Shown: positions 57,201 through 63,200 of the stretch, in pieces | Numbering within the stretch: position 1 is the stretch's first letter | Layout: each line of letters starts with the position of its first letter | Assembly (NCBI RefSeq): GCF_003018115.1 | Contig: NZ_CP027457.1 | Reading direction: 5' to 3' (one strand) | Origin: Escherichia coli | GTDB taxonomy: Bacteria > Pseudomonadota > Gammaproteobacteria > Enterobacterales > Enterobacteriaceae | DNA: 64,000 bases | Position numbers: made by a program

Positions 57201-60200
57201 TTTTATCAGGCGGATGTGCTGACTCAGGGCAAACCTGTGCTGCTTAACGTCTGGGCGACCTGGTGTCCGACCTGCCGTGCGGAACATCAATATCTGAATC
57301 AGCTTTCTGCGCAGGGCATCCGCGTGGTCGGCATGAACTATAAAGACGATCGCCAGAAGGCAATCAGCTGGCTGAAAGAGCTGGGCAATCCTTACGCGCT
57401 AAGCCTGTTTGATGGCGACGGCATGTTAGGGCTGGATCTCGGTGTCTATGGCGCGCCAGAAACGTTTCTTATTGACGGCAACGGTATCATTCGCTATCGC
57501 CATGCGGGCGATCTGAATCCTCGCGTCTGGGAAGAAGAGATCAAGCCGCTGTGGGAGAAATACAGTAAGGAGGCCGCACAATGAGGTTTTTATTGGGCGT
57601 GCTGATGCTGATGATCTCCGGCTCAGCGCTGGCGACCATCGATGTGTTGCAGTTTAAAGATGAAGCACAGGAACAACAGTTCCGTCAGCTCACTGAAGAA
57701 CTGCGTTGCCCGAAATGCCAGAACAACAGCATTGCCGATTCCAACTCGATGATTGCCACCGACCTGCGTCAGAAAGTGTATGAACTGATGCAGGAAGGCA
57801 AAAGTAAGAAAGAGATTGTCTATTATATGGTGGCGCGTTACGGCAACTTCGTCACTTACGATCCGCCGTTAACGCCGCTGACCGTGCTGCTGTGGGTGCT
57901 TCCCGTAGTGGCTATTGGCATTGGCGGTTGGGTCATATACGCCCGCTCGCGGCGTCGGGTACGCGTGGTGCCGGAAGCGTTTCCTGAACAAAGCGTGCCG
58001 GAAGGTAAGCGTGCCGGATATGTTGTTTATCTGCCGGGTATTGTGGTGGCGTTAATTGTGGCTGGCGTCAGCTACTACCAGACTGGCAATTATCAGCAGG
58101 TGAAAATCTGGCAGCAGGCCACGGCACAGGCTCCGGCGTTGCTGGACAGGGCGCTGGATCCGAAAGCCGATCCGCTCAACGAAGAAGAGATGTCGCGCCT
58201 TGCGCTGGGGATGCGTACTCAACTGCAAAAAAATCCGGGAGATATAGAAGGTTGGATTATGTTGGGCCGCGTTGGCATGGCGCTGGGGAACGCCAGTATC
58301 GCCACCGATGCATACGCTACTGCGTATCGCCTCGATCCGAAAAACAGCGATGCCGCACTGGGATACGCTGAAGCGTTGACACGTTCATCTGATCCCAACG
58401 ACAACCGCCTCGGCGGCGAACTGCTGCGCCAGTTGGTGAGAAGCGACCACAGCAATATCCGTGTGTTAAGCATGTATGCGTTTAATGCCTTTGAGCAGCA
58501 GCGATTTGGCGAAGCCGTTGCCGCGTGGGAGATGATGTTGAAACTCTTACCTGCCAACGATACTCGCCGTGCGGTGATTGAACGTAGTATCGCGCAGGCG
58601 ATGCAACATTTGTCGCTGCAGGAGAGTAAATAAAAAGTGGCCCGATGGTGATTCCATCAGGCCAGACTGATGACAAAGTGCGCTTAGTTTATGCCGGATG
58701 CGGCGTGAACGCCTTATCCGGCCTACACAATCGTGTGAATTCAATAAATTGATCGATCCGCGTAGGCCTGATAAGCGTAGCGCATCAGGCAGTTTTGCGT
58801 TTGTCATAAATCTCAGCCCGATGATAAATCCATCGGGCTATTTTTATTGTGCCCCGCGTTGTTGCAGGAACAGAATGGTGGCCGCCACGCGTGAGCGGAC
58901 ATTGAGTTTGCGCAGCAGATTGCGAATATGTACTTTTACTGTCTGCTCGGAAATATTCAACACCGAGGCAATCTGTTTATTTGACAGCCCCTGTGCCAGC
59001 TCGTGCAGAACATCCAGCTCGCGCTCCGTCAGCACGCTGAAGGGATCTTCTTCCGCGCCAAACATTTCACGTTCATGTAAGTACTGATTGACGCGTTCGC
59101 TAAAGACTTTGCTGCCTTTCGCTCCGGCACGAATCGCTTCCAGCAACACTTCCGGGTCGCTGTCTTTCAACAGATAACCGTCTGCGCCTGCGTCTATCAG
59201 CGCAAAGACATCGCTGGAGGCATCTGATACGGTCAGGATAATAATTTGCGCGGTAACGCCATCCCTGCGCAAGGCATTGAGGGTATCCAGGCCACTCATA
59301 CCTTTCATATTGAGATCCAGCAAGATCACGTCGATATCCAGTCTATTAGCCAGATCGATAGCACTCGCGCCGTCGCCCGCTTCGGCGACCACTTCAAAGC
59401 CAGGATCAAGCTCCAGTAACTGACGAACACCGCGTCGCATAAGTGGATGATCATCCACAATCATCACCTGAAAAGGCGTTGCTTCAGGCATAGTAGTCTC
59501 CTGAGGTTTTATTAGAATCATTATGTTTGAGCGTAGCGTTGGTATCGCTACCAGGCGCGTGAATGTTACCCCATTTTATGTATGGACATGTAGTGAAAAC
59601 TACAACCTTGCCGTTCGCTTTGGCATCATTTTCATTATAAAGACGGAATTTTGCATCAGCTTCTCATCAAGAAAAACAACTAAAAAATCAATCACAATAC
59701 TTGTGCATTTCTTTAAACAGTTTTTAAAAACTGACTCCGGGTATGGAGCTATGGGTATTTTCTGTACCCAATGCTTTTAACAGCAATTAATTTCATAGGA
59801 TGAAAGCTCAATGCATCAATCTGGTTCTGTTTCTCTTTGTCGTTCCGCAATATCTGTTCTGGTGGCTACAGCGTTATATTCACCCATAGCATTGGCATCA
59901 ACAGTTGAGTATGGTGAGACAGTTGATGGTGTTGTCCTGGAAAAAGATATCCAGCTGGTTTATGGGACCGCCAATAATACGAAAATCAATCCTGGCGGAG
60001 AACAGCATATTAAAGAATTTGGTATAAGTAGTAATACTGAAATTAACGGCGGGTATCAGTACATTGAAATGAATGGCACCGCAGAATACTCCGTATTAAA
60101 TGATGGTTATCAAATTGTTCAAATGGGTGGCGCGGCAAACCAGACTACCCTCAATAATGGTGTGCTACAGGTTTATGGCGCAGCGAATGATCCCACGATT

Positions 60201-63200
60201 AAAGGCGGGCGCTTAATTGTTGAAAAAGATGGGATTGCCGTCTTTGCCGCTATCGAAAAGGGAGGATTACTGGAGGTTAAAGACGGGGGATTAGCATTTG
60301 CGGTAGATCAGAAAGCAGGCGGTGCTATTAAAGCAAGCACGCGGGTCATGGAGGTATTCGGAACAAACCGTCTCGGTCAGTTCGAAATCAAGAATGGTAT
60401 TGCTAACAATATGCTGTTGGAAAACGGCGGAAGTTTGCGAGTTGAAGAAAATGACTTCGCTTATAATACTACTGTAGATAGTGGCGGCTTACTGGAGGTT
60501 ATGGATGGCGGGACTGCAACTGGCGTTGATAAAAAAGCAGGCGGAAAATTAATTGTCTCAACGAATGCGCTGGAAGTGAGTGGTACAAACAGTAAAGGCC
60601 AATTTAGTATAAAAGATGGTGTGTCAAAAAATTATGAACTGGATGATGGTTCTGGGCTTATTGTTATGGAGGACACGCAGGCCATTGACACTATCCTCGA
60701 TGAGCATGCCACTATGCAATCGCTGGGAAAGGATACTGGTACGAGAGTGCAGGCAAATGCGGTATATGATCTCGGTCGATCAGATCAGAATGGAAGTATA
60801 ACGTATTCCTCTAAAGCCATCTCTGAAAATATGGTTATCAACAATGGCCGCGCTAATGTCTGGGCTGGCACAATGGTTAACGTTTCAGTCAGAGGGAATG
60901 ATGGCATTCTTGAGGTCATGAAGCCGCAAATAAATTATGCACCCGCTATGTTGGTGGGTAAGGTAGTGGTTTCTGAGGGCGCTTCTTTTAGAACGCATGG
61001 TGCCGTGGATACCAGCAAAGCGGATGTTTCGCTCGAAAATAGCGCATGGACCATCATTGCCGATATCACTACGACGAACCAAAACACCCGCCTTAACTTA
61101 GCCAACCTTGCGATGTCTGGCGCAAATGTGATTATGATGGATGAGCCAGTGACTCGTTCATCTGTGACGGCAAGTGCGGAAAATTTCACTACGTTGACCA
61201 CCAATACCCTGTCGGGAAACGGCAATTTTTATATGCGTACCGATATGGCGAATCATCAGAGCGATCAGCTCAACGTCACCGGTCAGGCAACAGGTGATTT
61301 CAAAATATTCGTGACGGACACCGGTGCCAGCCCGGCAGCAGGAGATAGCCTTACACTGGTAACAACGGGCGGCGGTGATGCTGCATTTACGTTGGGCAAT
61401 GCCGGAGGCGTTGTTGATATCGGTACGTATGAATATACCTTGCTGGATAATGGCAACCATAGCTGGAGTTTGGCAGAGAATCGCGCGCAAATTACCCCTT
61501 CAACCACTGATGTGCTGAATATGGCGGCCGCACAACCGCTGGTATTTGATGCAGAACTGGACACCGTGCGTGAGCGTCTTGGTAGCGTAAAAGGCGTTAG
61601 TTACGATACGGCGATGTGGAGTTCGGCAATTAACACCCGCAACAACGTGACCACTGATGCGGGAGCTGGTTTTGAGCAAACATTGACGGGCCTGACGCTC
61701 GGTATCGATAGCCGTTTCTCCCGTGAAGAAAGCAGTACAATTCGCGGCTTGTTCTTTGGTTACTCTCATTCTGATATTGGTTTTGATCGCGGCGGAAAAG
61801 GTAATATCGATAGCTATACCCTGGGGGCTTATGCCGGTTGGGAGCATCAGAACGGTGCCTATGTTGATGGAGTGCTGAAAGTTGACCGTTTTGCCAACAC
61901 CATCCATGGCAAGATGAGTAATGGGGCAACAGCGTTTGGCGATTACAGTAGTAACGGCGCAGGTGCTCATGTCGAGAGCGGGTTCCGTTGGGTTGACGGA
62001 TTGTGGAGTGTTAGACCCTATCTCGCCTTTACCGGCTTTACCACAGATGGTCAGGACTACACGTTATCAAACGGCATGCGCGCGGATGTGGGAAATACCC
62101 GGATATTACGCGCTGAAGCGGGAACGGCGGTAAGCTATCACATGGACCTGCAAAACGGTACGACGCTGGAACCCTGGCTGAAAGCCGCCGTGCGTCAGGA
62201 ATACGCCGATTCTAACCAGGTGAAAGTTAATGACGATGGCAAATTTAATAATGATGTGGCTGGAACCCGTGGCGTTTATCAGGCTGGGATAAGGTCATCG
62301 TTTACCCCGACGTTAAGCGGTCATTTGTCAGTCAGCTATGGCAATGGCGCAGGGGTAGAATCGCCGTGGAATACCCAGGCTGGTGTGGTCTGGACGTTCT
62401 GATAACAGACAATAAACAGGCCGTGATGTGTCGCGGTCTGTTTATCGAATTAAATGCAGATATAAAAAAACCAACCTTTACGGTTGGTTTTTTTTGGGAT
62501 TTTTGGTCGCACGAGAGTAGTTTAATTGAACGTGTAACTTAATGATTTAAAAGAATGAGTCTGATTCAACTTTTAAGCCGTATAACCAAACGTATAGCTA
62601 AATTTATTTGCTGAAAAAATGTACAATTTAGAGTCAGATTTTCCCAGATGTTTAATTTATAAAACGAAGCTGGCGGCTGTTCTCTGATATGTGGATCCCC
62701 ATATCTGGAACCCTACCGGAATTTTTTTCCGGTTACCCTTTAATCAGGCTGGTGGGCTTTACCTGTTCGGTAGGTATGATCATTATGATCATACCTTTCG
62801 CCCCAATGGGAGGTAAAAGCGCCAACTGGACGGTTAAACCGTCTTTTTGTCACATCGTGTCACTGGTTGTCACTCTCCGTCACGATGTCCGCTCGCCTGG
62901 CTGTAAATCAAACTACGAAATTTTCGTAGTTGTGAGTAAGCCCCAAAATATGGGGATTACTCTTACTACCCAAACTACGGGTAGTTTCCGTAGTTTCATA
63001 GTCGAGTTGCAGATCTGCAACTCCCCCACCAGCCAGCGCAATTTTGCGCTTTGCTTTAAGTTCAGCGAGTTACAGCGCCGACTTCCTCAAATTGAGGTTG
63101 CCGGAAATATCAACCAGTTACGAGGCTCAAAATTGAGCCGCCTTTAAATCAACACGTTACCGCCGTAACCGCTCCGGCTTCTTCCAGTTGTACGTAATTT

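What the first reader, a model, noticed from the sequence alone, without database searches (positions are those of the whole stretch)
59522..62402. Intact yejO autotransporter with an internal tandem duplication and AT-rich upstream region
yejO is a full 863-aa ORF here (in K-12 it is disrupted, as I recall). Its passenger domain has an imperfect tandem duplication of an about 80-aa unit (DNA about 60270-60410 and 60495-60640: GGLLEV(K/M)DGG...KAGG...G(T/S)N..GQF(E/S)IK(N/D)G). The 290-bp upstream region shared with narP is strongly AT-rich, suggesting H-NS silencing. It sits directly beside the putative integration junction.
Basis: partly seen in the sequence, partly recalled or inferred. Interest (0 to 1): 0.3.

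Follow-up and report, generated by a model that had tools for sequence, protein, structure and literature searches.

The report
Intact yejO adhesin gene, ordinary
This is the normal, undamaged form of a known E. coli surface-adhesin gene (yejO); its internal repeat is an ancient duplicated building block that a few lineages have lost, so the finding is real but ordinary.

Summary
The sequence observations hold. Window 59811-62402 (+) is an uninterrupted 863-aa yejO: signal peptide, Ag43/AIDA-like beta-helix passenger, pertactin-like domain, helical linker and 12-strand barrel.

- **K-12:** yejO is broken there by IS5 after about codon 23.
- **Other strains:** the locus matches in 5424 of 5426 complete E. 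coli genomes, and about 4000 carry the two-copy passenger. Intactness here is the norm, as already published.
- **The repeat:** it is real, with a period of 74 aa (222 nt), not about 80. The units are aa 149-222 and 223-296, 51% aa and 53% nt identical. They correspond to two Pfam AIDA domains. The units group by position across Escherichia lineages, so the duplication is ancient.
- **Copy-number variation:** it exists but is minimal. 280 genomes (5%) share one 789-aa allele with an in-frame 222-nt deletion, crossed over in an 11-nt microhomology (AAAGCAGGCGG). A second, independent deletion at the same site occurs once. No expansions were seen.
- **Upstream region:** the spacer is 319 bp (not 290), 36.7% GC, and conserved. 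H-NS silencing is plausible, with indirect ChIP and RNA-seq support from K-12, but it is untested here.
- **Integration junction:** it is real. A proL 3' remnant lies at 62504-62517, followed by prophage DNA. yejO lies outside the inserted element.

Interest is low.

The parts
58844..59491 (-). narP (215-aa response regulator), divergently transcribed neighbour
   Evidence: ORF (the longer 225-aa ORF starts upstream; the real ATG is at 59491, seen). Annotated as narP, 648 nt.
59492..59810 (.). narP-yejO divergent intergenic region, AT-rich (36.7% GC); presumed promoters of both genes and candidate H-NS-bound region
   Evidence: GC, lowest 2% of the window; ten A/T tracts of 6 nt or more. (319 bp in all 7 Escherichia loci, 96% mean column identity). 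H-NS binding is inferred only.
59811..62402 (+). yejO, intact 863-aa classical (type Va) autotransporter
   Evidence: 98% identical to the cluster named 'autotransporter YejO' (P0002, 16,859 members).
59811..59897 (+). signal peptide (aa 1-29, ...SPIALA|STVEYG)
   Evidence: Read from the sequence; AF2 pLDDT is below 50 for residues 1-34. No signal-peptide predictor was run.
60255..60476 (+). repeat unit 1 (aa 149-222), AIDA-type beta-helix module of 8 strands
   Evidence: Pfam PF16168 with two stretches; AF2 strands are in register with unit 2 at offsets of 73-74.
60477..60698 (+). repeat unit 2 (aa 223-296)
   Evidence: Same as unit 1.
60312..60322 (+). 11-nt microhomology AAAGCAGGCGG (K-A-G-G) in unit 1; its twin is at 60534-60544 in unit 2; crossover site of the one-copy alleles
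60323..60544 (+). 222-nt segment absent from the 789-aa (280 genomes) and 790-aa (singleton) one-copy alleles
61101..61475 (+). pertactin-like domain (aa 431-555)
   Evidence: Pfam PF03212, E = 7e-45.
61497..61586 (+). alpha-helical linker (aa 563-592)
   Evidence: AF2 secondary structure.
61608..62399 (+). C-terminal beta-barrel translocator ending ...VVWTF
   Evidence: PF03797 E = 4.5e-45; TIGR01414 E = 8e-111; Foldseek match to the BrkA beta-domain 3QQ2, TM 0.91.
62464..62504 (+). terminator-like hairpin (13-bp stem) plus T-run after yejO
62504..62517 (-). remnant of the 3' end of tRNA-Pro (proL), the att-site copy marking the integration junction
   Evidence: homology to other genomes ends here.
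62518..64000 (.). end of an inserted prophage (not part of yejO); C-terminus of a prohead protease/major capsid fusion gene on the - strand at the window edge

Best explanation
This is the ordinary, intact chromosomal allele of yejO. yejO is a core-genome classical (type Va) autotransporter of the AIDA-I/Ag43 structural class. The protein has a Sec signal peptide, a beta-helical passenger, a pertactin-like domain, a helical linker and a 12-strand barrel that would insert into the outer membrane and display the passenger. From its relatives it is most likely an adhesin or aggregation factor. The 'internal duplication' is an ancient tandem duplication of a 74-aa, eight-strand beta-helix module (a Pfam AIDA domain). 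It is fixed in Escherichia and has diverged to about 50% identity. Because the two modules are structurally in register, one full period can be removed in frame. Slippage or illegitimate recombination across an 11-nt in-register microhomology (AAAGCAGGCGG, encoding KAGG) has done this at least twice. One event produced a 789-aa chimeric-module allele now carried by 280 complete genomes. The gene sits behind a conserved 319-bp AT-rich divergent spacer shared with narP. This spacer is probably bound by H-NS, keeping yejO essentially silent in laboratory conditions, as for other cryptic E. coli adhesins. Shown here: gene identity, architecture, repeat anatomy and age, allele frequencies, and the deletion junctions. 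Inferred: adhesin function, H-NS silencing, and the slippage mechanism.
For: Identity and architecture: Pfam AIDA x2, Pertactin, Autotransporter; TIGR01414 E = 8e-111; PDB sequence hits Ag43 7KOH E = 2e-37, TibA, pertactin, BrkA barrel; AF2 model pLDDT 82.9 with Foldseek top hits Ag43 (E = 4e-25) and BrkA beta-domain (TM 0.91). Core-gene status: matches in 5424/5426 genomes, all chromosomal; the order ccmF-dsbE-ccmH-narP|yejO|yejM is kept in a lineage whose YejO is only 76% identical. Repeat; units group by position (u1-u1 76-95%, u2-u2 69-100%, u1-u2 42-53%); AF2 strands in register at +74. Deletion alleles: probe specific to two-copy alleles in 4014 genomes, downstream probe in 4294, junction probe at >=99% in 280; the junction lies in the 11-nt microhomology; four one-copy genomes from human, turkey, pig and dog encode the identical protein WP_000554212.1; an independent event sits on the divergent haplotype, with L007 carrying L009-type SNPs on both sides of the junction and a right flank 98.8% identical to L009 versus 92.9% to YJ1. 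Silencing: 36.7% GC spacer; narP transcription unit flagged H-NS-bound while its gene body is not; K-12 yejO ranks 4501 of about 4510 genes for expression across 3,376 RNA-seq sets; H-NS represses other E. coli autotransporters (PMC3966885).
Against: No experiment on YejO function was found in the searchable literature. Scores for the Ag43 and AIDA-I equivalog models are far below cut-off (134 vs 1200; 69 vs 1200), so function cannot be transferred by orthology. The H-NS and expression data come from K-12, where IS5 sits in yejO, and yejO itself is not listed in the ChIP tables searched. AT-rich intergenic regions are common in E. coli, and the promoter scan found no sigma-70-like site in the spacer. 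Frequent decay of the gene (IS5 in K-12, double deletion in UPEC-type strains, truncated 771-aa forms) suggests it is dispensable in many niches.
Confidence: 0.75

Rival explanations
1. The repeat is a contingency (VNTR-like) locus. Frequent gain and loss of 74-aa units would vary adhesin length or antigenicity between and within strains.
For: Copy number does differ between strains (2 versus 1), and the same junction arose twice independently. Other in-frame indels exist in rare alleles.
Against: The units are only 53% identical at DNA level with an 11-nt longest useful match. TRF finds no array. Only two states were seen among about 4300 genomes. All 280 one-copy genomes match the junction probe at >=99%, and the four checked encode one identical protein. 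No 3-copy allele appears among the 120 best protein clusters. The units have not been homogenised.
Confidence: 0.05
2. yejO is horizontally acquired island cargo. The AT-rich DNA next to a tRNA integration site would then be xenogeneic DNA silenced by H-NS.
For: Low GC in the spacer and the N-terminal passenger (GC3 35-40% for aa 1-296, versus 52% for the barrel). The gene is adjacent to proL, a known integration hot spot (PMC4924310).
Against: The gene is present at the same locus in 5424/5426 genomes and in a divergent Escherichia lineage with identical synteny and spacer length. The att remnant lies downstream of yejO's terminator, and homology with island-free strains runs through yejO up to 62517, so yejO is outside the inserted element. 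Any acquisition predates the species.
Confidence: 0.07
3. The AT-rich spacer is just ordinary promoter DNA for narP and yejO. yejO is silent or weak for reasons other than H-NS, such as a missing activator, or it is simply decaying.
For: E. coli intergenic DNA is generally AT-rich (established knowledge). The narP-proximal 100 bp are nearly invariant, as expected of a working narP promoter and leader. No direct H-NS data exist for yejO. The gene is pseudogenised repeatedly.
Against: The spacer is in the lowest 2% of the window for GC, and the low-GC tract spans about 700 bp including the 5' end of the gene, typical of H-NS filaments. ChIP data flag the narP unit. There is precedent for H-NS repression of other autotransporters.
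Confidence: 0.25

Closest known systems
YejO of E. coli (b2190 in K-12; RefSeq 'autotransporter YejO')
   Same: 98% aa identity to the 863-aa cluster representative; the same narP-yejO-proL-yejM locus; the same domain set.
   Different: Nothing essential. The K-12 reference copy is split by IS5, while this copy is whole. This allele is at most 98.5% identical over 3.2 kb to any complete genome in the collection.
Antigen 43 (Ag43/Flu; PDB 4KH3, 7KOH, 7KO9), self-associating autotransporter
   Same: Best sequence and fold match for the passenger (E = 2e-37; Foldseek E = 4e-25); AIDA-type repeats; beta-helix.
   Different: Only about 23-25% identity. Scores 134 bits against an equivalog cut-off of 1200. 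The passenger is shorter. No Dam/OxyR phase-variation context is known for yejO. Self-association is untested.
AIDA-I / TibA glycosylated adhesins
   Same: PF16168 AIDA domains and TIGR04415 strand-loop-strand repeats; TibA 4Q1Q E = 2e-26.
   Different: No heptosyltransferase gene is adjacent; the neighbours are narP and the proL remnant. The AIDA-I model scores 69 against a cut-off of 1200.
H-NS-repressed cryptic E. coli autotransporters (UpaC, EhaG/UpaG)
   Same: Chromosomal adhesin genes that are poorly expressed in the laboratory and sit behind AT-rich promoters (PMC3966885).
   Different: For those genes, repression was shown with hns mutants and binding assays. For yejO it is inferred only.
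Repeat-length variants of autotransporter passengers (e.g. UpaH; from my own knowledge, not checked here)
   Same: In-frame loss of whole beta-helix repeat modules between strains.
   Different: Those repeats are many and near-identical. Here there are just two, about 50% identical, and the loss is microhomology-mediated.

Membership tests
Classical (type Va) autotransporter | N-terminal Sec signal peptide | tested here: met
   MHQSGSVSLCRSAISVLVATALYSPIALA|S: a basic residue, a hydrophobic core and an A-x-A site, read from the sequence. No dedicated predictor was run.
Classical (type Va) autotransporter | C-terminal 12-strand beta-barrel (PF03797) preceded by a helical linker, ending in an aromatic residue | tested here: met
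   PF03797 E = 4.5e-45; TIGR01414 E = 8e-111; AF2 helix 563-592 followed by a barrel; Foldseek TM 0.91 to BrkA 3QQ2; the protein ends ...VVWTF.
Classical (type Va) autotransporter | Beta-helical passenger | tested here: met
   AF2 all-beta passenger, pLDDT mostly above 80; top structural hits Ag43 and pertactin.
YejO orthologue group | High identity to named YejO and conserved position between narP and proL/yejM | tested here: met
   98% identity to P0002; synteny.
Ag43/Cah family (NF033177 equivalog) | Score at or above the curated cut-off of 1200 bits | tested here: not met
   133.8 bits. Structural relative, not a member.
AIDA-I (NF033176) | Score at or above 1200 bits; partnered heptosyltransferase gene | tested here: not met
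   68.8 bits. No glycosyltransferase ORF flanks the gene.
Self-associating autotransporters (functional class) | Cell-cell aggregation or biofilm formation on expression | not testable with these tools
   Needs expression in an adhesin-free host.
H-NS-silenced gene | AT-rich promoter region | tested here: met
   36.7% GC over 319 bp, lowest 2% of the window.
H-NS-silenced gene | H-NS occupancy and derepression in an hns mutant | not testable with these tools
   Only indirect evidence: the narP transcription unit is flagged H-NS-bound in K-12. yejO was not found in the supplements searched.
Contingency / VNTR locus | Near-identical tandem units with many copy-number states | tested here: not met
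   53% nt identity; TRF negative; only 2-copy and 1-copy states.

The most novel reading that the evidence does not exclude
The 74-aa module pair is a recurrent microhomology-mediated deletion hot spot. The resulting shorter YejO, with a chimeric module, was fixed in a successful lineage: the 280 genomes include APEC O78 and, from my memory of strain names, ST410/ST23 phylogroup-C isolates. On this reading it was fixed because it changes adhesin reach, self-association or antigenicity. Passenger length would then be a selectable trait of an otherwise uncharacterised core adhesin.
Probability: 0.12. Interest if true: 0.35.

Novelty: already known. Interest (0 to 1): 0.12.

Why it matters
It matters little on its own. 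It confirms that the K-12 pseudogene state of yejO is the exception. It also gives a clean anatomy for an uncharacterised core autotransporter: a 74-aa duplicated AIDA module, the deletion junction, and allele frequencies. The modest new points are the 789-aa allele carried by about 5% of complete genomes and the independent recurrence of the same 222-nt deletion. These could serve as a lineage marker, or as a natural pair of alleles for testing how beta-helix length affects an adhesin.

Tried and rejected
- DNA-level repeat finders (repeat finder, TRF) reported nothing for the duplication. It is visible only at protein level or by in-register comparison.
- Rfam found no RNA family in 56000-64000.
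- The sigma-70 scan found no promoter-like site in the spacer.
- A NarL/NarP 7-2-7 site search found none in the spacer, so there is no sign that the adjacent NarP regulates yejO.
- Literature searches for yejO with H-NS or autotransporter gave no functional study.
- Supplements of three H-NS or occupancy papers did not list yejO/b2190. Only the narP flag in PMC4720273 was informative.
- I considered that the 935-aa protein P0001 might be a 3-copy allele. It is instead an exact 72-aa duplication in the pertactin-like region.
- I considered assembly collapse as the source of the one-copy alleles. I rejected it because the units are only 53% identical, the 789-aa allele is in 280 finished genomes, and the four checked encode the same protein.
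- I considered the 85-aa ORF at 59523-59780 in the spacer but did not test it. I found no support for it as a gene.
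Full report
**What is there**

The region holds one long ORF, 59811-62402 on the + strand, 863 aa with an ATG start. Pfam finds two AIDA stretches (PF16168, E = 7e-53), a pertactin domain (aa 431-555) and the autotransporter barrel (aa 602-841). NCBIfam gives TIGR01414 at E = 8e-111. The Ag43 and AIDA-I equivalog models score far below their cut-offs (134 and 69 bits against 1200).

The N-terminus reads as a Sec signal peptide (…SPIALA|STVEYG), and the protein ends …VVWTF. The closest solved structures by sequence are Ag43 (7KOH, E = 2e-37), TibA, pertactin and the BrkA barrel.

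An AlphaFold2 model built from a nine-sequence alignment has mean pLDDT 82.9. It shows an all-beta passenger, a helix at 563-592 and a barrel. Foldseek matches the passenger to Ag43 (E = 4e-25) and the barrel to BrkA (TM 0.91). The protein is 98% identical to the 16,859-member cluster named 'autotransporter YejO'. The flanking genes are ccmF, dsbE, ccmH and narP, as in annotated genomes.

**Is an intact copy unusual?**

No. The 3.2-kb region matches in 5424 of 5426 complete E. coli genomes, always on the chromosome, and 4281 of them cover at least 80% of it.

- **K-12 exception:** K-12-type genomes carry IS5 after codon 23 (PMC11005336; PMC11677980).
- **Degraded copies:** three representative low-coverage strains (from urine, CSF and a rectal swab) carry a pseudogene with two large deletions, 60293-61286 and 61744-62372 in window terms. 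About one fifth of the sampled rows fall in this class.
- **Published picture:** this matches earlier reports. YejO is present in commensal and diarrhoeagenic strains and truncated in UPEC (Wells et al. 2010, quoted in PMC3426408), and it is missing from ST131 (PMC5654935).

**The internal duplication**

Residues 149-220 align without gaps to 223-294, with 37 of 72 identical. The local score is 177, against 26.5 +/- 5 for shuffles. In a self dot-plot, offset 74 scores 120, while the ordinary 18-aa rung periodicity scores 78. The duplication is therefore distinct from the general repetitiveness of a beta-helix.

The period is 74 aa (222 nt). The units are at 60255-60476 and 60477-60698. DNA identity is only 53% (31% at third codon positions), which is why TRF and the repeat finder report nothing. 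The AF2 model places eight strands in each unit, in register at +73/74.

Across four Escherichia allele classes, down to 76% overall identity, unit 1 resembles unit 1 (76-95%) and unit 2 resembles unit 2 (69-100%). Unit 1 against unit 2 stays at 42-53%. The duplication therefore predates these lineages and has not been homogenised. The same AIDA-type motif occurs in distant autotransporters at 30-40% identity.

**Copy-number variation**

- **Counts:** a probe for the segment present only in two-copy alleles (60323-60482) hits 4014 genomes. A probe just downstream (60560-61280) hits 4294. The difference is 280.
- **Junction probe:** a 301-nt probe across the junction of a one-copy allele (strain YJ1) matches at >=99% in exactly 280 genomes.
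- **The allele:** it encodes 789 aa and lacks exactly 74 aa, leaving a chimeric unit (start of unit 1 joined to the end of unit 2).
- **Crossover site:** the crossover lies in the only long in-register match between the units, the 11-nt AAAGCAGGCGG encoding KAGG, at 60312-60322 and 60534-60544.
- **Single origin:** four such genomes, from human, turkey, pig and dog, encode the identical protein WP_000554212.1, with identical NarP and CcmH. This indicates one clonally inherited event.
- **Independent recurrence:** a 790-aa allele (P0065, locus L007) has the same junction but carries SNPs of a divergent 864-aa allele class (P0015/L009) on both sides of it. Its right flank is 98.8% identical to L009 and 92.9% to YJ1.
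- **No expansions:** no allele with three units appeared among the 120 best protein clusters. The 935-aa variant is a different, exact 72-aa duplication in the pertactin-like region.

The picture is an old, stable duplication that is occasionally resolved by microhomology-mediated deletion. It is not a variable-number repeat.

**Upstream region and H-NS**

narP begins at 59491, so the spacer is 319 bp. Its GC is 36.7% against 51.9% for the window, the lowest 2% of all 319-bp windows, and it contains ten A/T tracts. Low GC continues through the N-terminal passenger (GC3 35-40% for aa 1-296), whereas the barrel has host-like composition. The spacer is 319 bp in all seven Escherichia loci compared and 96% conserved. 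The narP-proximal 100 bp are almost invariant, and there are conserved blocks near yejO.

Support for H-NS binding is indirect:

- In Higashi et al. 2016, narP is listed as not bound in its gene body but as belonging to an H-NS-bound transcription unit. That category covers promoters and intergenic regions (PMC4720273).
- H-NS represses other E. coli autotransporters (PMC3966885).

All of this comes from K-12, where IS5 sits in the gene, and yejO itself was not found in the tables searched. No sigma-70-like site and no NarP 7-2-7 site were found in the spacer. H-NS silencing is therefore plausible but unproven.

**The junction**

yejO is followed by a strong terminator-like hairpin at 62464-62494. 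Next comes TGGTCGCACGAGAG at 62504-62517, which is the 3' end of tRNA-Pro (proL) with one base missing. In most genomes the complete tRNA and yejM follow here.

In the window, foreign DNA follows instead. It ends in the C-terminus of a prohead protease/major capsid fusion gene and is 100% identical to three genomes. No intact tRNA is present up to position 64000. proL is a documented integration site next to yejO (PMC4924310). yejO lies outside the inserted element.

**Verdict**

The observations are correct after small corrections: the unit is 74 aa rather than about 80, and the spacer is 319 bp rather than 290. The object is a known gene in its usual state. The only new details are the frequency, junction and recurrence of the one-copy allele. 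Interest is low.

Noticed in passing
window 62504-64000: A prophage is integrated at proL. Only the 14-nt 3' remnant of tRNA-Pro is left next to yejO, followed by foreign DNA ending in a ClpP-like prohead protease/major capsid fusion gene (- strand, running off the window). This 1.48 kb is 100% identical in only 3 of 5426 genomes (JNE141411, OkiPb01682, OkiPb01698), and those strains' yejO differs from the window's by about 2%.
   Followed up: partly
window 60689-61136 (yejO aa ~294-442): yejO alleles are mosaic. Against the divergent 864-aa allele class (L009), SNP density is 13-22% in this segment but 1-5% in most of the rest of the gene and spacer (up to 13% in the N-terminal passenger). 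This suggests recombination or diversifying selection in one part of the passenger.
   Followed up: no
protein clusters P0001, P0014, P0016, P0020, P0031: Other rare in-frame indel alleles of yejO exist: an exact 72-aa tandem duplication in the pertactin-like region (935 aa); a 40-aa deletion inside unit 2 (823 aa); a 34-aa barrel deletion between IDS...IDS (829 aa); a 10-aa duplication (799 aa); and a common C-terminally truncated 771-aa form lacking the last barrel strands.
   Followed up: partly
window 59400-62600 as a whole: The best full-length match among 5426 complete genomes is only 98.5% (O157:H7/O55:H7 lineage). Sub-segments are 100% identical to different strains: 60323-60482 to O157:H7 and others, and 60560-61280 to strain F9792. 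The window's allele therefore looks recombinant or comes from a lineage not in the collection.
   Followed up: no
window 46365-46380: TACCTCGATCGGGGTA is a near-perfect NarL/NarP 7-2-7 inverted heptamer pair found while scanning for NarP sites. It presumably belongs to the nap/ccm region upstream; this was not examined.
   Followed up: no
L002 (K-12-type) 1412-2674 versus window 59874-59877: The IS5 insertion point in K-12 yejO falls within the low-GC 5' end of the gene, about codon 22-23. The two alignments overlap by 4 nt, as expected of a target-site duplication.
   Followed up: no
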